From NCBI GenBank assembly GCA_963721695.1, contig CAVRKU010000004.1, forward strand, positions 10,927 through 74,926: a DNA stretch of 64,000 nucleotides, written 5' to 3'. Shown piece after piece: positions 1,576 through 31,304 of the stretch. The stretch's first letter is position 1, and every line of letters starts with the position of its first letter. Position numbers and translations under genes: made by a program. Under the pieces are notes generated by a model. That model did no database searches and was not told the DNA's origin. It saw nothing but the letters and a program-made list of their open reading frames with translations. Source of the DNA: an uncultured Microthrixaceae bacterium. GTDB taxonomy: Bacteria; Actinomycetota; Acidimicrobiia; Acidimicrobiales; VFJN01.

Positions 1576-1576
<1 letters not shown>
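809..1576 (+). CDS. rplV: 50S ribosomal protein L22 with a long acidic, His-rich C-terminal extension
   Basis: L22 core [23 protein letters not shown]...[16 protein letters not shown], followed by a tail of about 120 aa ([21 protein letters not shown]-rich). The tail frame is uncertain. Confidence 0.85.
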
Positions 1577-2479
<903 letters not shown>

Positions 2480-2484
2480 CTGAC

Positions 2485-2901
2485 ATGTTGATGCCCAAGA
2501 AGGTCAAGCACCGCAAGCAGCACCGCGGGCGCACGAAGGGTCAGAGCAAGGGTGGCACCGAGGTCACCTTCGGCGAGTACGGCATCCAGGCCCTCGAGCC
2601 CGGGTGGATCACCGCTCGCCAGATCGAGGCCGCCCGAATCGCCATGACCCGCAAGACCCGGCGTGGCGGCAAGGTCTGGATCACCGTCTTCCCCGACAAG
2701 CCCGTCACCGAGAAGCCGGCCGAGACCCGCATGGGCTCCGGCAAGGGCAACCCGGAGCGCTGGGTCGCGGTCGTGAAGCCGGGCCGCATCCTGTTCGAGC
2801 TCTCGTACCCCGATCAGGAGCTGGCCAAGGTCGCCATCGACCGGGCCATCCAGAAGCTGCCGATCAAGGCTCGCTTCGTCACCCGCGAGGAGGCGCTCTG
2901 A
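2485..2901 (+). CDS. rplP: 50S ribosomal protein L16
   Basis: [16 protein letters not shown]...[26 protein letters not shown]. Confidence 0.95.
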
Positions 2902-5281: not shown

Positions 5282-5821
5282 ATGTCTCGCATCGGCAAGA
5301 CCCCCATCCCCGTGCCCAGCGGCGTCGACGTGACGATCGCGGGCGCCCACATCACCGTGAAGGGCCCCAAGGGCACCCTCGAGCGCGACATCCCCGGCGC
5401 CATCACCGTCCGCCAGGACGGCGAGGAGCTGCTGGTGGAGCGCCCGAACGACGAGCGCCAGAACCGGGCGCTCCACGGTCTGGTGCGCTCGCTCGTGAAC
5501 AACATGGTCGTGGGCGTGCACGAGGAGTTCACCAAGGAGCTCGAGATCATCGGCGTCGGCTACCGCGCCGCCGCCCAGGGCACGAGCAAGCTCGACCTCG
5601 CCCTCGGCTTCAGCCACCCCGTCTCGGTCGACGCCCCCGAGGGCATCAGCTTCGAGACCCCCGCCCCGAACCGCATCATCGTGAAGGGCATCGACAAGGA
5701 GATCGTCGGCCAGGTGGCCGCCAACATCCGCAAGATCCGCAAGCCCGAGCCCTACAAGGGCAAGGGCGTCCGGTACCTCGGCGAGCACGTCGCCAAGAAG
5801 GCCGGGAAGACGGGCAAGTGA
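5282..5821 (+). CDS. rplF: 50S ribosomal protein L6
   Basis: [17 protein letters not shown]...[10 protein letters not shown]. Confidence 0.95.
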
Positions 5822-9588: not shown

Positions 9589-10337
9589 GTGAAGCGGTCT
9601 GCCTCTGATCTGGCGAAGATGCGGCGGGCGGGGCGGGTCGTGGCCGAGATGCACTCCTGCATCCGCGAGGCGATCCGCCCGGGGGTGACCACCGCCGAGC
9701 TGGATCGGATCGGACGGGACGTGATCGAGCGACGCGGCGCTCGCTCCAACTTCCTCGGCTACGGGCACCCGCCGTTCTCGGGGGTGATCTGCGCCTCCCC
9801 GAACGACGTCATCGTGCACGGGATCCCGGGTCCGGTGCGGCTGGAGGACGGCGACATCGTCTCGATCGACTGCGGGGCGATCATCGAGGGCTGGCACGGC
9901 GACGCCGCCTTCACGGCCGGGGTGGGGGAGATCGACCCGGAGGATGCCCGGCTCATCGAGGTGACCGAGGCATCGCTGGCCGCCGGCATCGCGGCGATGG
10001 TCCCCGGCGGACGTCTGTCCGACATCGGCGCCGCCGTGCAGCGGCGTGGCCGAGGCGGCCGGGTTCTCGGTCGTGCGGGAGTACACGGGCCACGGCATCG
10101 GGATGGCCATGCACGAGCAGCCCGACGTCCCCAACTGGGGCAAGCCCGGCAAGGGCCGCCGGCTGGGCCCGGGTCAGACCTACGCCGTCGAGCCCATGGT
10201 CTGCGCCGGCCAGCCCGACGACCCGGCTGCTCGAGGACCAGTGGACCGTCGTCACCGCCGACGGCCGGCGGGCCGCCCACACCGAGCACACCATCGCCAT
10301 CACCGACGACGGCCCCGAGATCCTCACCCTGCCCTGA
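9589..10337 (+). CDS. map: Methionine aminopeptidase type I (two apparent indels, near 10043 and 10218)
   Basis: [31 protein letters not shown] and [17 protein letters not shown] are spread over three frames. Confidence 0.9.
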
Positions 10338-10425
10338 GCCACGCAAAGCCACCCGTTGGCTGCGTTGCCGGACTATGGTGCTCAGACCCGCAGGATCCCT
10401 GTGGCCCCGGCGTACGGACGTCGAG

Positions 10426-10454
10426 TTGGACCTCCGCCGTGCCCGCGCTAGCAT
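10426..10454 (+). promoter_or_regulatory. Candidate housekeeping-sigma promoter for infA-rpmJ-rpsM
   Basis: TTGGAC, 17-nt spacer, TAGCAT, about 90 nt upstream of infA in the 209-nt map-infA gap. Confidence 0.4.
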
Positions 10455-10546
10455 CACCCTTCGGCCCTGGGCCCAGTCCGTCGTCTGCACGCGCCCCGTG
10501 CGGCGGCCGGTCGAGCCCGCCATCTCAGCAATCCAGGAGCCCCACT

Positions 10547-10771
10547 CTGGCCAAGCCCAAGGAAGACGCGATCGTGCTGGAAGGCACGGTGGTCGAGCCC
10601 CTCCCGAACGCGATGTTCCGGGTCGAGCTCGAGAACGGCCACAAGGTGTTGGCCCACATCTCCGGGAAGATGCGGATGCACTACATCCGGATCCTGCCCG
10701 GCGATCGCGTCCAGGTGGAGCTCACCCCGTACGACCTCACCCGGGGTCGGATCACCTACCGGTACAAGTGA
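10547..10771 (+). CDS. infA: Translation initiation factor IF-1 (the aligned start codon is CTG)
   Basis: (L)[54 protein letters not shown]...[14 protein letters not shown] lies 7 nt upstream. Confidence 0.9.
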
Positions 10772-10785
10772 ACGAGAGCGCCCCG

Positions 10786-10899
10786 ATGAAGGTCCGCCCG
10801 AGCGTCAAGAAGATCTGTGAGAAGTGCAAGGTGATCCGCCGCCACGGGCGCGTCCAGGTCATCTGCACCAACCCCCGGCACAAGCAGCGCCAGGGCTAG
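10786..10899 (+). CDS. rpmJ: 50S ribosomal protein L36 (zinc form)
   Basis: [37 protein letters not shown]. Confidence 0.95.
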
Positions 10900-12368: not shown

Positions 12369-13308
12369 ATGCTCGTCATCCAGCGCCCCACCGTCGAGGC
12401 GATCGGCGAGGCTCAGGGCAATCGCCAGACCTTTGCCGTCAGCCCGCTGGAGCCCGGCTTCGGCCACACGCTCGGCAACTCCCTGCGTCGCACGCTTCTG
12501 TCGTCGATCCCCGGCGCCGCCATCACGCAGCTCCGCTTCGACGACGCCCTCCACGAGTTCGACACCATCGCCGGGGTCACCGAGGACGTCACCGACATCA
12601 TCCTCAACCTCAAGGACCTCGTGCTGGTGTGCCACAGCGAGGAGCCGGTCACCCTGCGCCTCGACGTCAAGGGTGCGGCCGACATCACCGCCGCCGACAT
12701 CTCGACCACCAGCGACGTCGACGATCCTGAACCCCGGTCTGCACATCGCCACGCTCAACAAGTCGGCTCGTCTCGCCATCGACATCACCGTGTCGAAGGG
12801 CCGGGGCTACGTGTCCGCCGACCGCAACAAGGGCAGCGCCACGATCGGCGTCATCCCGGTCGACTCGATCTTCTCGCCGGTGCGCCGCGTCGCCTTCCAG
12901 ATCGAGCCCACCCGCGTCGAGCAGTCCACCGCCTACGACCGCCTCGTGCTCGACATCGAGACCGACGGGTCGATCAGCCCCCGCGAGGCGCTGGCGTCGG
13001 CTGGCGACACCCTCCGCTCGCTCGTCGGCCTGGTGGCCGAGATGAGCGACGACCCGCAGGGCCTCGAGCTCGGCGAGGTGGCCACCACCACCACCGGCTC
13101 GCCCGACCTCGACCTCCCCATCGAAGACCTCGACCTCTCCGAGCGGCCGCGCAACTGCCTCAAGCGGGCGCAGGTCAACTCGATCGGCGAGCTCCTCCTG
13201 AAGACCGAGGACGACCTGCTCGCCATCACGAACTTCGGCCAGAAGTCGCTCGACGAGGTCATCCAGAAGCTCGACGAGCGTGGCCTGCAGCTGCGCACGA
13301 AGGACTAG
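12369..13308 (+). CDS. rpoA: DNA-directed RNA polymerase alpha subunit (apparent indel near 12720)
   Basis: [28 protein letters not shown] in one frame. The rest, including the [24 protein letters not shown], is in another frame. Confidence 0.92.
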
Positions 13309-13316
13309 GACCCGCC

Positions 13317-13670
13317 ATGCCTGCCACCCCGAAGAAGGGACGTCGCTTCGGCGGCAGCTCCCAGCACCAGCGGCTGATGATGGCCAACCTCGTCGCGTCG
13401 CTCGTCGCCGCCGAGGGCATCGTCACGACCGAGGCGAAGGCCAAGGCGCTCCGACCCGTCGCCGAGAAGGTCATCACGAAGGCCAAGAAGGGCGGCCTGC
13501 ACAACCACCGCCAGGTCGTGTCCTACCTCGGCGACAAGGAGATGGCCCACAAGCTCTTCACCGAGATCGGGCCCCGCTATGCCGACCGCAACGGCGGCTA
13601 CACCCGCATCCTCAAGCTCGGCAACCGCCAGGGTGACAACGCTCCCATGGCCCGGATCGAACTGGTTTGA
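13317..13670 (+). CDS. rplQ: 50S ribosomal protein L17
   Basis: [25 protein letters not shown]...[25 protein letters not shown]. Confidence 0.95.
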
Positions 13671-26714: not shown

Positions 26715-28372
<1,658 letters not shown>

Positions 28373-28442: not shown

Positions 28443-30036
28443 TCAGAACGGCCACTGGGCGTTGCGGCCGCCCTCCAGCACCTCCATGGCCTTGAAGGTG
28501 GCATCGGTGAAGCCGCCCAGCGTGTACCGGCCCCGCTCGCCGGCCGGCAGCGCCGACGGCCGGTAGCCGCCCAGGTCGAAGGTGTAGATCAGCGGTACGT
28601 GCTCGAGCCGGACCTGACCGGCGTCGTGCTGCTGGTCGTCGGTGAAGAGCACCACCCGTCGATGGCGATCAGGGTCGTACCACTGCTTGATGGCCGTGTG
28701 GCCGAACGTGGCGTGACCGACCGAGCCCACCGACCGCACGATCTGCTCCACCTCGCGCGAGCACCGATGCGCCGCGCCGGCGCCGCATCCGCGCGTTCGT
28801 CTGGCCGTAGACCACGACATCGACGGCCGCGGCACGGTGTGCCGTCGCCATCGGCCATGACCGCGGCGATCTCGACCCGCTGCAGCGTGGATCGACCGGA
28901 CACCGCCGCCTGCATCGAGCCCGAGGTGTCGATGACGACGAGGGTGCCATCGAGGGCAGGGATGTTGGCCACGGTGTAGCTCGAGCGTCCGGCCGAGCGC
29001 CCGCTTCCAGGCGTCCGACGGCGCGTGCTTGTACGCCGCCCACACCTGGTACGGGAACAGGCGCGCCTTGGCCACCTCGTCGGCGTCGGTGATCTTCGCG
29101 ATGACCGCATCGATCGACGGCTCCGAGATGCCGGCCTGGTCGAAGTTGCGCAGGTTGCGGACCAGCGCCATCACGCCCATCGACGGGATGACGGCCTCCC
29201 ACGCCTCCGCGTCCATGCCACCCGGCAGCCAGCCCGACAGCCGCTCCCAGGAGACGCCCGCGTCGGCCAGGGCCGCCGGGCCCCGGTCGCGCAGGAGCTG
29301 GCGACGGTCACCCTCGGGCACGGTGGCCAGCGTCGGCCGCCGCGGCGAGGACCGGCAGCAGCGCGGGATCGGCCACGGCATCGTCGTGGTGGCGACGGTC
29401 GAGCAGCCACTTGAAGAGCGCCGACTGGCGCTCGTCGCGGGGCGACGGGTGGGTGAGCTCGACCACGTCGGCCATGCGGATCTGGCGCGACAGCCCGTCG
29501 TACCGCAGCACCGCACGCTCCGTGTAGAGGCGTCGGACGGCGTCAGCGATGCCGCGCTTGACTGGCATCGGGCACGTTCCGACCGTGCGTGGTCAGCCAG
29601 TAGCCGAGCAGCTCGGCCGGCTCGTCGGGCCGCTGGAGGGCCCGGGCGACCACCGACCGACCACCGACCCCTCCGGCCGCCACGTACTCGGCCGCCATCA
29701 CGACGGCGGCCGAACGCATGAGCAGGGTCGAGCGCAGGTACTGGATGAGGCCGACCTGGCCGGCCTCGAGGTCACGACCGGCGAGGAACGCTGGGTTCGC
29801 GGCGGCCACCTCGTGGACGAGCTGCGACGAAGCGGGCGTCGCGGTCCGCGGCGCGCTCGTAGAAGGTGTCCTCGCCGACCATGTTCGTGGCCGCGAGCAG
29901 GAACAGCTCCGACTCGGGATCGCGCGCGAAGGCCTCGCCGCCCTCGTGGGTGCGGAGGCGATCGCGCACGCGTGCGGATCGGTGCGGTCAGGTTGGGGCG
30001 GAGCGGGCGCCGCTTGGTGCCCGAGAACTTGGCCAT
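28443..30036 (-). CDS. rsr: Ro60-related protein Rsr (TROVE plus vWA domains); about 7-8 apparent frameshifts
   Basis: Fragments across three frames: [11 protein letters not shown]; [18 protein letters not shown]; [12 protein letters not shown]; [22 protein letters not shown]; [13 protein letters not shown]; the vWA MIDAS motif [11 protein letters not shown]; and the C-terminus LFTDDQQHD...[13 protein letters not shown] lies 5 nt upstream of the ATG. Confidence 0.85.
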
Positions 30037-30082
30037 GACGCCCTCCTCTCTTATCTCGGTTGATGGGGTGGTTGGGAGTGGG

Positions 30083-30182
30083 TCCGGTCAGGGAACACGG
30101 TGGACGGGCGGTGCCGAGTCGAACGGCAGGCCCGAAGGTCTCTTCGCCAGAGAAGGAAGCCCGTCCTTCGCAGCTGACCGGA
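30083..30182 (-). ncRNA. Y-RNA-like RNA 2 (paralog of Y1; carries a T-arm but no D-arm or acceptor hairpin)
   Basis: 9-bp terminal stem (30083-30091 with 30174-30182). Asymmetric loop CUGCGAA / ACCGUGUUCC. 8-bp helix GGACGGGC/GCCCGUCC (30159-30166 with 30102-30109). UUCCUUCUCU tract. T-arm UGCCG-UUCGACU-CGGCA. Confidence 0.6.
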
Positions 30183-30188
30183 AGGGGA

Positions 30189-30326
30189 AGTTCGGCCTGG
30201 GAACCAAGGCGGCAGGGGTGTGCATGTGCTCTACCGATTGAGCTACGTCCACCGAGTGGACGACGGGACTCGAACCCGCAACCCCATGATCAGAAGGAAC
30301 CCCTGCCTGCGCAGCAGGCCGATCTA
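30189..30326 (-). ncRNA. YrlA-like Y RNA 1 with a circularly permuted tRNA-like domain
   Basis: 8-bp terminal stem (30192-30199 with 30315-30322). Loop CUGCGCA / GCCUUGGUUCC. 8-bp helix GGCAGGGG/CCCCUGCC. Then UUCCUUCUGAU, T-arm GCGGG-UUCGAGU-CCCGU, closed acceptor-like hairpin CGUCCAC-UCG-GUGGACG, and D-arm GCUC-AAUCGGUA-GAGC. Lies about 150 nt upstream of rsr on the same strand. Confidence 0.75.
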
Positions 30327-30966: not shown

Positions 30967-31107
30967 CTGCGTGTCGTGGTCCCGGGCGTGCTCGAACCTC
31001 CTCCTGCCGGGTTTCGATCGGCCGCTCCACCGTCAGAGCTTCAGCGAGGTTCCGCCTGCGGGGTCGGCTGCGGGGAGAACCCGCTGCGTCTCGGATCGAG
31101 TTGGCGT
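30967..31107 (-). other. Irregular tRNA-derived segment that does not fold into a canonical cloverleaf
   Basis: On the minus-strand RNA: D-arm-like GCUC-UGACGGUG-GAGC; arm GCCGA-UCGAAAC-CCGGC (GAA triplet); UUCGAGC T-loop-like motif without a pairing partner; GCGGG-UUCUC-CCCGC (the neighbouring T-arm minus 2 nt). A possible 12-bp helix pairs 30975-30986 with 31113-31124. Confidence 0.35.
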
Positions 31108-31174
31108 CCTCGCCCGGGACCACGCGACCAGGGGCGGTCGGAAGGAAGGAACCCTGGTCTCGCATCGGACGAAG
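31108..31174 (-). ncRNA. Y-RNA-like module 3 (minimal paralog)
   Basis: Outer stem CUUCGUCC/GGGCGAGG (two G-U pairs), loop AUGCGAGA / GCGUGGUCCC, and 8-bp helix GACCAGGG/CCCUGGUC capped by UUCCUUCCUUCCGACCGC. The architecture and motifs match Y1 and Y2. Confidence 0.45.
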
Positions 31175-31177
31175 CAG

Positions 31178-31250
31178 AGCCGGTTGCGGGGATCGAACCC
31201 GCTGCCTCTCGGGTGGGGCCGAGCGTCCTTGCCTTCAGGACCTCACCGGC
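31178..31250 (-). tRNA. tRNA-Gly-like (probable anticodon CCC) with a 6-nt anticodon loop, no CCA
   Basis: Acceptor GCCGGUG (6 bp plus one mismatch), U73, D-arm GUCC-UGAAGGCAA-GGAC, anticodon arm CUCGG-CCCCAC-CCGAG, T-arm GCGGG-UUCGAUC-CCCGC. Confidence 0.5.
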
Positions 31251-31255
31251 GTGGT

Positions 31256-31291
31256 GGTGGTCCCGCCCGGCCTGTTCCGGGCGGGACCACC
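31256..31291 (-). other. 15-bp perfect GC-rich hairpin between the rtcB stop and the first downstream tRNA
   Basis: GGUGGUCCCGCCCGG-AACAGG-CCGGGCGGGACCACC. It lies 14 nt after the rtcB stop and 5 nt before the tRNA 5' end, with no U tract. Confidence 0.6.
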
Positions 31292-31304
31292 TCATCGGCT
31301 GCGC

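What the first reader, a model, noticed from the sequence alone, without database searches (positions are those of the whole stretch)
31108..31174. Third minimal Y-like module inside the tRNA array carries the same motif set
The minus-strand RNA reads CUUCGUCC-GAUGCGAGA-GACCAGGG-UUCCUUCCUUCCGACCGC-CCCUGGUC-GCGUGGUCCC-GGGCGAGG. It reproduces the outer stem, the UGCGxA loop, an 8-bp helix ending in GGG, the UUCCUUC tract and the GxxUGGUxCC return loop of Y1 and Y2, but has no tRNA-like domain. Three copies of this signature within 1.1 kb argue that it is a functional unit and not chance.
Basis: seen in the sequence. Interest (0 to 1): 0.6.

Follow-up and report, generated by a model that had tools for sequence, protein, structure and literature searches.

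The report
Shortened third Y RNA in tRNA array
The 67-base hairpin is a real but unusually shortened extra copy of the bacterial "Y RNA" module, the small RNA partner of the Ro/Rsr RNA-quality-control protein; it sits between tRNA genes next to an RNA-ligase gene, so it is a new member of a known RNA family, not a new kind of element.

Summary
Window 31108-31174 (minus strand) folds into outer stem, UGCG loop, 8-bp helix, pyrimidine loop and GGU-CC return loop. The same signature occurs three times in 1.1 kb, against 0.08 expected.

The window comes from an Acidimicrobiia (Microthrixaceae) MAG. In rsr loci of 14 other Acidimicrobiia MAGs, a conserved ~95-nt structured module lies at the same place: after rtcB, between tRNA-Thr(CGU) and tRNA-Phe(GAA).

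Two covariance models support homology, and neither contains any window sequence:
- One was built from those orthologues.
- One was built from 56 modules just upstream of rsr in other genomes.
- Each picks out the window's Y1 (an Rfam YrlA-like hit), Y2 and Y3. The second gives no other match in the 64 kb.
- All 92 good matches lie on the rsr strand, and the stems covary.

I conclude that Y3 belongs to the Rsr-linked Y RNA family, in the form without a tRNA-like domain (like YrlB and Yrn2).

This particular copy is the most reduced of the 92:
- Two conserved apical hairpins are missing.
- Its flanking tRNAs are degenerate.
- A 14-bp helix with the tRNA-Phe remnant competes strongly with its outer stem.

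Function in this genome is therefore uncertain.

The parts
31108..31174 (-). Y3: Y-RNA-like module without a tRNA-like domain (67 nt). Outer stem 31167-31174 with 31108-31115, extended by G31166-C31116. 5' internal loop GAUGCGA 31160-31166. Inner 8-bp helix 31152-31159 with 31126-31133. 18-nt pyrimidine-rich apical loop 31134-31151. 3' internal loop GCGUGGUCCC 31116-31125.
   Evidence: Sequence; fold; full-length matches to R1 (32.4 bits) and R2 (32.2 bits, E 5.4e-6), both built without window sequence.
31178..31250 (-). Degenerate homologue of tRNA-Thr(CGU), directly upstream of Y3. Its anticodon loop is CCCCAC (6 nt) where relatives have CCCGUAC.
   Evidence: Rfam tRNA 35.6 bits; not called by ARAGORN; alignment with L073, L069 and L024.
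31050..31107 (-). About 58 nt that are absent from relatives, between Y3 and the tRNA-Phe remnant. It includes GCAGCGGGUUCUCCCCGCAGCC, which looks like a partial copy of the neighbouring tRNA's T arm with 2 loop bases missing.
   Evidence: Alignment A4; read directly from the sequence.
30975..31049 (-). tRNA-Phe(GAA) remnant. D arm, anticodon arm (GAA), T loop and 3' acceptor strand are recognisable, but the 5' acceptor strand is replaced. Its 3' strand (30975-30988) is the partner in the 14-bp helix with Y3's 3' side (31111-31124).
   Evidence: Alignment with intact tRNA-Phe of L073, L069 and L024; not called by ARAGORN or Rfam; folds.
30190..30325 (-). Y1: YrlA-like Y RNA with a complete tRNA-like domain.
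   Evidence: Rfam YrlA RF02553 at 42.2 bits, E 4.5e-7, below the gathering score of 69; R1 37.2 bits; R2 63.7 bits.
30082..30184 (-). Y2: YrlB-like Y RNA with only a T-arm-like hairpin.
   Evidence: R1 40.2 bits; R2 65.8 bits.
28443..30036 (-). rsr (Ro60/TROVE) gene, read in several frames in this assembly.
   Evidence: Pfam TROVE; TROVE match in the own-genome search; 62 homologous loci.
31305..32471 (-). rtcB RNA ligase gene, with 3 frame changes in this assembly.
   Evidence: Pfam RtcB; tblastn with the intact L024 RtcB gives four pieces in three frames.
31258..31302 (-). GC-rich hairpin directly after the rtcB stop codon. An equivalent hairpin is present in L024 and L052.
   Evidence: Sequence; partial R1 and Rfam hairpin matches.

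Best explanation
Y3 is a paralogue of the two Y RNAs upstream of rsr. It carries only the conserved Rsr(Ro60)-binding part of a bacterial Y RNA: the terminal stem, the asymmetric internal loop with UGCG(A/C)A on the 5' side and GGUUC(C/U) on the 3' side, and the G-rich inner helix. These are capped by a short pyrimidine-rich loop in place of a tRNA-like effector domain.

By position it is the orthologue of a conserved ~95-nt module that lies between tRNA-Thr(CGU) and tRNA-Phe(GAA), downstream of rtcB, in Acidimicrobiia tRNA-array/rsr islands. In this genome the two apical hairpins have been lost.

Proposed mechanism (inferred, not shown):
1. The element is transcribed as part of the tRNA-array/rtcB/rsr transcript.
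2. It is released by the tRNA-processing enzymes that cut the tRNAs abutting it.
3. It binds the outer surface of the Rsr ring through the conserved stem and loops, as YrlB and Yrn2 do. There it gates access to Rsr, or tethers Rsr to a partner through its pyrimidine loop.

Shown here: sequence and structure homology, conserved position and strand, and covariation in relatives. Inferred: Rsr binding, processing, and activity of this shortened copy.
For: - R1 was built from 12 Thr-Phe intergenic modules of other MAGs. On those 12, 96% of cells pair, 7 pairs show compensatory changes, and 0 of 500 shuffles reach the observed score. R1 matches window Y3 end to end (32.4 bits), and also Y2 and Y1.
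- R2 was built from 56 rsr-proximal modules, with neither window nor Thr-Phe sequences. It gives exactly three matches in the 64-kb window at E <= 1: Y2, Y1 and Y3.
- All 92 R1 matches at E <= 1e-3 lie on the rsr strand, in 46 related loci plus the window. On them 94.7% of cells pair and 25 of 28 pairs show compensatory changes.
- In the own genome the models hit only this locus. In 251 genomes of the class the only two R1 hits lie about 1 kb upstream of a TROVE gene on the same strand.
- Actinophage Ro-like genes have two such modules just upstream.
- Y1 is the Rfam YrlA-like hit.
- The 5' motif UGCG(A/C)AG and the following UU(A/C)C fit the published GNCGAAN0-1G and YUAY features. [quoted passage not shown]
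- Y3's inner helix carries an A-U pair where all 12 orthologues have G-C, so pairing was kept through a change on both sides.
- In relatives the modules abut tRNA ends with 0-18 nt spacers.
Against: - Y3 has the shortest apical region of all 92 modules (17 nt; the next shortest is 22). It lacks hairpins A and B, which are present in 12-13 of the 14 positional orthologues. Even the other 'minimal' modules keep hairpin A.
- Y3 has 1-nt gaps in both conserved loops.
- Both flanking tRNAs are degenerate.
- In the 211-nt unprocessed context, the fold that uses the 14-bp helix with the tRNA-Phe remnant is 15 kcal/mol more stable than the one that keeps Y3's outer stem.
- There is no Rfam match.
- Its folding energy is not exceptional (z = -1.4).
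- At 67 nt it is below the 80-130 nt range of characterised Y RNAs (PMC4201824).
- rsr and rtcB are frameshifted in the assembly.
- No expression or binding data exist.
Confidence: 0.6

Rival explanations
1. Y3 is a decaying relic. It descends from the 95-nt Y-like module but no longer functions. The stretch 30967-31250 (aberrant tRNA-Thr, truncated module, partial tRNA duplicate, broken tRNA-Phe) is a degenerating part of an accessory island.
For: - Both conserved apical hairpins are lost.
- Y3 is the shortest of the 92 modules.
- Neighbouring tRNAs are degenerate, and about 58 nt are inserted.
- A strong alternative helix exists.
- The module is dispensable in some relatives: L018, L025, L027 and L028 have tRNA-Thr and tRNA-Phe 1-22 nt apart.
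- The island is sporadic: TROVE is found in 2 of 61 relatives.
Against: - Both stems are fully complementary, and one pair changed on both sides.
- All invariant loop bases (UGCG, A, GGU, C) are kept.
- Modules of 78-86 nt without a tRNA-like element exist elsewhere, so a small apical region is tolerated.
- The frameshifts in rsr and rtcB are probably assembly errors, because essential genes in the window are broken too.
Confidence: 0.27
2. The sequence is an assembly artefact. The real genome carries a full-length ~95-nt module and intact flanking tRNAs, and the short form comes from errors in a low-coverage long-read assembly.
For: - The assembly is error-prone. rtcB has 3 frame changes.
- Several essential genes look frameshifted. 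rpsC, map and rpoA each read into the next gene as one ORF, and groEL is cut at 192 of 490 profile positions.
- The MAG is 75% complete.
- The 1-nt gaps in Y3's loops fit this kind of error.
Against: - The differences are a ~28-nt loss and a ~58-nt gain, not single-base indels.
- The inner helix is perfectly complementary in a way that single-base errors would not produce.
Confidence: 0.06
3. The module is a cis-acting processing or folding element of the tRNA-array transcript, for example a spacer that guides RNase P/Z or RNase III cleavage. On this view it is not a trans-acting partner of Rsr.
For: Modules abut tRNA ends inside arrays. There is no direct evidence of Rsr binding.
Against: - The same core lies in tandem directly upstream of rsr, without flanking tRNAs, in most loci and in phages.
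- It forms the stem of the YrlA-like RNA.
- Genome-wide hits track TROVE genes, not tRNA arrays in general.
Confidence: 0.05
4. Y3 is a chance GC-rich hairpin with no relation to Y RNAs.
For: Its folding energy is not unusual for this composition (z = -1.4), and there is no Rfam hit.
Against: Two independent models match it. The motif count is far above chance. Positional orthologues exist in 14 loci.
Confidence: 0.02

Closest known systems
YrlB (S. Typhimurium, M. smegmatis) and Yrn2 (D. radiodurans): second Y RNAs bound by Rsr (Chen et al. 2013, 2014; PMC4201824)
   Same: - Encoded close to rsr on the same strand.
- A long hairpin whose terminal stem carries the putative Rsr-binding motif.
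- A small pyrimidine-rich loop and no full tRNA-like domain.
- Co-exists with a YrlA-type RNA in the same locus.
- M. smegmatis YrlA and YrlB are processed from one precursor.
   Different: - Y3 is shorter: 67 nt, against 80-130 nt for characterised Y RNAs.
- It lies 1.07 kb from rsr, inside a tRNA array and just after rtcB, not next to the other Y RNAs.
- No binding or expression data exist.
- M. smegmatis YrlB has a T arm; Y3 has none, and here that form corresponds to Y2.
YrlA, Rfam RF02553 (Y RNA-like with tRNA-like effector domain; Chen 2014; Wang et al. 2018, bioRxiv 10.1101/312249)
   Same: It shares the terminal stem and loop core: the UGCG(A/C)AG motif (published as GNCGAAN0-1G) and the following YUAY-like UU(A/C)C. 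The window's Y1, which is the YrlA-like hit, is matched by the same covariance models as Y3.
   Different: Y3 has no T, D or acceptor-like arms and gives no Rfam YrlA match at any threshold tried. Even Y1 reaches only 42 of the 69 bits needed.
The ~95-nt tRNA-Thr/tRNA-Phe intergenic module of Acidimicrobiia rsr islands (defined here, model R1)
   Same: Same genomic slot (after rtcB and tRNA-Thr(CGU)), the same two stems and the same two internal loops. The match to the model is end to end.
   Different: The window copy replaces 40 model positions (hairpin A, UUCAC..GUGAA, and hairpin B, GCCC-GNRA-GGGC) with 18 nt, and has 1-nt gaps in both loops.
[quoted passage not shown] 2021, PMC8421152)
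   Same: A dense accessory tRNA array with one tRNA for most amino acids, next to an rtcB gene.
   Different: That paper does not mention Y RNAs, Rsr or TROVE. Here the array also carries rsr and 2-4 Y-like modules, some placed between tRNAs.

Membership tests
Bacterial Y RNA (Rsr/Ro60 partner; Chen et al. 2014 criteria) | Encoded within about 4 kb of the Ro60 orthologue, on the same DNA strand. | tested here: met
   Y3 (31108-31174, minus strand) lies 1.07 kb upstream of the rsr start (30036, minus strand).
Bacterial Y RNA (Rsr/Ro60 partner; Chen et al. 2014 criteria) | A stem formed by the 5' and 3' ends that carries the conserved 5'-strand motif GNCGAAN0-1G (the putative Rsr-binding site). 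| tested here: inconclusive
   The terminal 9-bp stem is present. The motif here is AUGCGAG. The consensus of the 92 related modules is (C/A)UGCG(A/C)AG, which matches CGAAG but has U where the published motif has its first G. Y3 is also 1 nt short.
Bacterial Y RNA (Rsr/Ro60 partner; Chen et al. 2014 criteria) | Homology to Y RNAs of the same locus or clade, detectable with a covariance model. | tested here: met
   R2 (56 rsr-proximal modules from other genomes) matches Y3 at 32.2 bits, E 5.4e-6, over the full model length. It matches only Y1, Y2 and Y3 in the window.
Bacterial Y RNA (Rsr/Ro60 partner; Chen et al. 2014 criteria) | Size of 80-130 nt, with a large internal loop or a second (effector) module. 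| tested here: not met
   Y3 is 67 nt with an 18-nt apical loop. Its orthologues in other MAGs are 86-98 nt.
Bacterial Y RNA (Rsr/Ro60 partner; Chen et al. 2014 criteria) | Bound and stabilised by Rsr in vivo, and present as a discrete small RNA. | not testable with these tools
YrlA (Rfam RF02553) | A tRNA-like effector domain (T arm, D arm, acceptor-like stem) and a score at or above the gathering score of 69 bits. | tested here: not met
   There is no YrlA match on 30967-31310 even at E <= 10. The apical loop is 18 nt with no T-loop motif.
   40 model positions are replaced by 18 nt. The tRNA-Phe is broken and displaced by about 58 nt.

The most novel reading that the evidence does not exclude
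In Acidimicrobiia and some actinophages, Y-RNA modules may be regular 'genes' of long tRNA arrays. There are one to four per locus at E <= 1e-3 (weaker hits would add more). They fall into three size classes: a full tRNA-like domain, a T arm only, and no tRNA element. Some are wedged between tRNAs, so tRNA-processing enzymes would release them.

The Thr-Phe module, with its three-way junction and GNRA hairpin, would then be a third, undescribed Y RNA subclass. It would act with Rsr and RtcB to guard or repair the array's tRNAs during RNA-damage conflicts. The window's Y3 would be the minimal Rsr-binding core of that subclass.
Probability: 0.4. Interest if true: 0.55.

Novelty: new member of a known kind. 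Interest (0 to 1): 0.35.

Why it matters
Bacterial Y RNAs have been characterised in only three species, and Rfam recognises only the tRNA-like YrlA type. None of the Acidimicrobiia modules tested here reaches Rfam's gathering score.

This work adds three things:
- a well-defined, covarying core shared by about 90 modules;
- three size classes of module;
- a recurring placement of Y-like modules between tRNA genes of accessory arrays that also carry rtcB and rsr.

Together these give a concrete, testable set of RNAs for two questions: what the minimal Rsr-binding unit is, and how Ro/Y RNPs connect to tRNA repair.

The specific window copy matters less. It is a reduced, possibly inactive derivative in an error-prone metagenome assembly.

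Tried and rejected
- **Rfam.** No family matches Y3, at gathering score or at E <= 10. No YrlA match is listed for 13 relatives' loci; a 69-bit match would rank within the 150 rows shown.
- **BLAST of the 1.18-kb Y/tRNA stretch against 40 relatives.** It found only tRNA-sized matches, so the locus is absent from close relatives. TROVE is present in 2 of 61.
- **Class-wide search with R1 over 251 genomes.** The strict filters made it insensitive, and it missed even the own genome. Only its two positives are informative.
- **Exact search of metagenome contigs for Y3's deletion junction.** No match.
- **rpoB as a yardstick for frameshifts.** The gene is not in this incomplete MAG, so I used broken rpsC, map, rpoA and groEL instead.
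Not upheld as stated, because essential genes in the window are broken too.
- **A 150-nt YrlA-like RNA closed by the 14-bp helix (31124 to 30975).** Rejected. The 3' strand is the acceptor end of a tRNA-Phe that is intact in relatives, and the enclosed sequence is a non-conserved insert plus the tRNA-Phe body.
- **Pairing of the UUCCUUC tract with Shine-Dalgarno sequences.** Rejected. The common UUACUUC variant does not fit, and in full-length modules the tract is the 5' strand of hairpin A.
- **Burroughs and Aravind 2016.** The paper could not be read because it is not held.
- **Loci from genome contigs.** They were not available in the Python box, so I passed sequences through alignments.

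Full report
**1. Observation**

The minus strand of window 31108-31174 reads CUUCGUCC GAUGCGA GACCAGGG UUCCUUCCUUCCGACCGC CCCUGGUC GCGUGGUCCC GGGCGAGG, 67 nt.

The MFE fold is the proposed hairpin. It has a 9-bp outer stem, an asymmetric internal loop with a 3-bp (GCG/CGC) mini-helix inside it, an 8-bp inner helix and an 18-nt pyrimidine-rich loop. The energy is -36.2 kcal/mol with flanks, and z = -1.4 against shuffles, so the energy alone proves nothing.

The signature TGCG-N8-13-TTCCTTC is found at three sites in the 64-kb window, all on the minus strand within 1.1 kb. Chance expectation is 0.08.

**2. Setting**

On the minus strand the order is:
1. six tRNAs;
2. rtcB;
3. a GC-rich hairpin;
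4. a tRNA-like gene (31178-31250);
5. Y3;
6. about 140 nt of irregular sequence;
7. eight tRNAs or tRNA-like genes;
8. Y1, the only Rfam YrlA-like match (42.2 bits, below the gathering score of 69);
9. Y2;
10. rsr (TROVE).

Upstream of the array lie a CBS-domain gene, dus and maf. Beyond rsr lie groEL and tsaD.

The genome is a 3.67-Mb, 71% G+C MAG that is 75% complete. Its rsr homologues come almost entirely from Acidimicrobiia MAGs. A same-genus genome is labelled Microthrixaceae.

**3. Relatives**

A search with the Rsr fragment returned 62 genomic and 3 viral loci. ARAGORN shows the same layout in most of them: tRNA array, rtcB, tRNA-Thr(CGU), tRNA-Phe(GAA) and more tRNAs, then rsr.

In 11 loci a gap of 86-112 nt separates tRNA-Thr from tRNA-Phe. 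In four others the two tRNAs are 1-22 nt apart.

Aligning these gaps, plus L036, with Y3 gives a conserved module. Its parts are:
- stem 1, CGCCCG/CGGGCG plus variable outer pairs;
- loop AUGCG(A/C)A;
- stem 2, GACCGGGGG/CCUCCGGUC;
- UU(A/C)CUUC, which runs into hairpin A (UUCAC/GUGAA);
- hairpin B, GCCC-GNRA-GGGC;
- return loop GCnnGGUnCC.

On the 12 non-window sequences, 96% of cells pair and 7 of 28 pairs change on both sides. No shuffle (0 of 500) and no slid register comes near.

**4. Homology tests**

Model R1, built from those 12 sequences only, was run over the window and 65 loci (666 kb).
- It found the 12 training sequences plus L072 and L074 at 69-105 bits.
- It found the window's Y2 (40.2 bits), Y1 (37.2) and Y3 (32.4, E 1.8e-4).
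- It found about 75 further modules, nearly all within 700 nt upstream of rsr.
- All 92 matches at E <= 1e-3 lie on the rsr strand, in 46 loci plus the window, with one to four per locus.
- On these 92, 94.7% of cells pair and 25 of 28 pairs show compensatory change. For example, one stem-1 pair is A-U in 36, C-G in 35 and U-A in 21. The caveat is that this alignment is fitted to the model.

The reciprocal model R2 was built from 56 rsr-proximal modules of loci that lack the Thr-Phe module, and it contains no window sequence. It gives exactly three matches in the window at E <= 1: Y2 (65.8 bits), Y1 (63.7) and Y3 (32.2, E 5.4e-6).

Further support:
- In the whole own genome the models hit only this locus.
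- An admittedly insensitive scan of 251 genomes of the class gave two hits. Both lie about 1 kb upstream of a TROVE gene on its strand.
- Gordonia phage Rabbitrun and Streptomyces phage BRock have two tandem modules just upstream of their Ro-like genes, with GAUGCGAAG, GUUACUUC and GUUCCC. In BRock (and in Arthrobacter phage Atuin) the Ro-like gene sits among tRNA genes; in Rabbitrun the tRNA array lies about 1.3 kb downstream.

**5. What the family is**

Positions invariant across the 92 modules are the G that closes stem 1, UGCG, an A, GGU, and two Cs. The 5' motif (C/A)UGCG(A/C)AG and the following UU(A/C)C correspond to the GNCGAAN0-1G and YUAY features that Chen et al. describe for YrlA and YrlB. 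Those authors relate the first feature to the GGUCCGA contacted by Ro60 (PMC4201824).

[quoted passage not shown] By the length of the apical insert, the modules fall into classes:
- 71-99 nt, with a full tRNA-like domain (Y1 type);
- 45-62 nt, with a T arm only (Y2 type, like M. smegmatis YrlB);
- 36-43 nt (the Thr-Phe type);
- 22-30 nt (minimal).

Y3, at 17 nt, is the shortest of all.

**6. This copy**

Relative to its positional orthologues, Y3 differs in several ways:
- It has lost hairpins A and B: 40 model positions are replaced by 18 nt.
- It lacks one base in each conserved loop.
- The tRNA upstream aligns with tRNA-Thr(CGU) of relatives but has a 6-nt loop, CCCCAC.
- Downstream there are about 58 extra nucleotides that include a partial T-arm copy.
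- After that comes a tRNA-Phe whose 5' acceptor strand is replaced.

In a 211-nt precursor, the fold that uses this helix has -95.2 kcal/mol. The fold that forces Y3's outer stem has -79.8 kcal/mol. The inner helix survives in both.

The long-range helix is not conserved, because relatives have intact tRNA-Phe genes. Y3 is also transcribed first, so it could fold co-transcriptionally.

In favour of continued constraint, both stems are perfectly paired. One inner pair is A-U where all 12 orthologues have G-C.

**7. State of the protein genes**

rtcB needs three frame changes, and rsr needs at least two. However, essential genes in the same window are also broken:
- rpsC reads into rplP as one ORF;
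- map reads into rpmJ;
- rpoA reads into rplQ;
- groEL is cut at 192 of 490 profile positions.

Single-base assembly errors are therefore the likelier cause. That cause could also explain the 1-nt gaps in Y3, but not the larger rearrangements. My check does not support a clean background.

**8. Mechanism**

The best-supported reading is that Y3 is a Y RNA reduced to the Rsr-binding core.

By analogy with characterised Y RNAs, it would bind the outer surface of the Rsr ring through the conserved stem and loops. It would then either gate substrate access or recruit a partner through its single-stranded pyrimidine loop (bioRxiv 10.1101/312249; PMC4201824).

In relatives the modules abut tRNAs with 0-18-nt spacers. 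This holds also for weaker array-embedded hits, such as the four in L066. Release by RNase P and 3'-end tRNA processing is therefore the natural maturation route. M. smegmatis YrlA and YrlB are likewise cut from one precursor, and YrlA is an RNase P substrate.

Binding, processing and activity are all inferences. Expression could not be examined.

**9. Novelty**

Y RNAs without a tRNA-like domain, rsr-Y RNA-rtcB linkage, and long accessory tRNA arrays next to rtcB are all known (PMC4201824; PMC8421152).

I did not find three things described in the literature I could search:
- a third Y-type module placed between tRNAs of such an array;
- its three-way-junction form;
- up to four modules per locus.

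Rfam does not detect these RNAs. Y3 itself is a new, reduced member of a known family.

**10. Verdict**

Whether this copy functions remains open.

Noticed in passing
L013-L074 (e.g. L059 3839-4253, L030 3802-4253, L023 3640-4408): Acidimicrobiia rsr loci carry one to four Y-like modules at E <= 1e-3, often in head-to-tail tandem just upstream of rsr. By apical insert length they fall into classes: 22-30, 36-43, 45-62 (T arm only) and 71-99 nt (full tRNA-like).
   Followed up: partly
L066 2776-2881, 3255-3334, 3409-3493, 3756-3860; also L056 824-931, L060 3365-3470, L063 2993-3091, L014 2677-2810, L027 2485-2564: Weaker matches to the Y-like module fill the ~100-nt gaps between tRNA genes of otherwise tightly packed arrays, abutting the tRNA ends. 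This suggests tRNA-punctuated release.
   Followed up: partly
L082 (Gordonia phage Rabbitrun) 2882-2963 and 3173-3260; L081 (Streptomyces phage BRock) 2880-3078; L080 (Arthrobacter phage Atuin) 5196-5632: Actinophage Ro-like genes lie beside or inside tRNA arrays and have two Y-like modules just upstream. In Rabbitrun these overlap small annotated hypothetical CDSs (genes 93 and 94) and the annotated start of the Ro-like gene. Atuin has an unannotated 437-nt gap between tRNA-Thr and tRNA-Phe with a weak module match at 5494-5631.
   Followed up: partly
window 31258-31302 (-); L024 2836-2865; L052 2554-2585: A GC-rich hairpin (GGUCCCGCCCGG...CCGGGCGGGACC) directly follows the rtcB stop codon in at least three loci, with no U tract. 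It may be a processing site or a terminator/attenuator between rtcB and the downstream tRNAs.
   Followed up: no
window 1576-2901, 9589-10899, 12369-13670, 26721-27734: Essential genes appear frameshifted in this assembly. rpsC reads into rplP, map into rpmJ and rpoA into rplQ, and groEL is cut at 192 of 490 profile positions. This points to a high single-base indel error rate across the whole MAG.
   Followed up: partly
window 33425-36020 (-): A CBS-domain gene, an intact dus (dihydrouridine synthase) and maf lie co-directionally just upstream of the tRNA array. In Salmonella, DusA modifies the D loop of YrlA, so the linkage with dus may be functional.
   Followed up: no
L064 / L078 (same-genus genome G023, contig C5 around 516 kb): This is the only other genome of the genus with a TROVE gene (79% identical Rsr). 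Within 5 kb it shows no tRNA genes and no Y-like module. The rsr gene may therefore exist without the array, or that assembly is disrupted.
   Followed up: partly
L043 4505-6062 and L024 4508-6098: rsr needs a frame change about 250 codons in, both in a short-read MAG (L043) and in a long-read MAG (L024). I did not determine whether this is coincidence, a shared error-prone context or something biological.
   Followed up: no
L027, L033: Two loci with the typical Acidimicrobiia layout sit in MAGs labelled Gammaproteobacteria and Rhodobacteraceae. This could be mis-binning or horizontal transfer.
   Followed up: no
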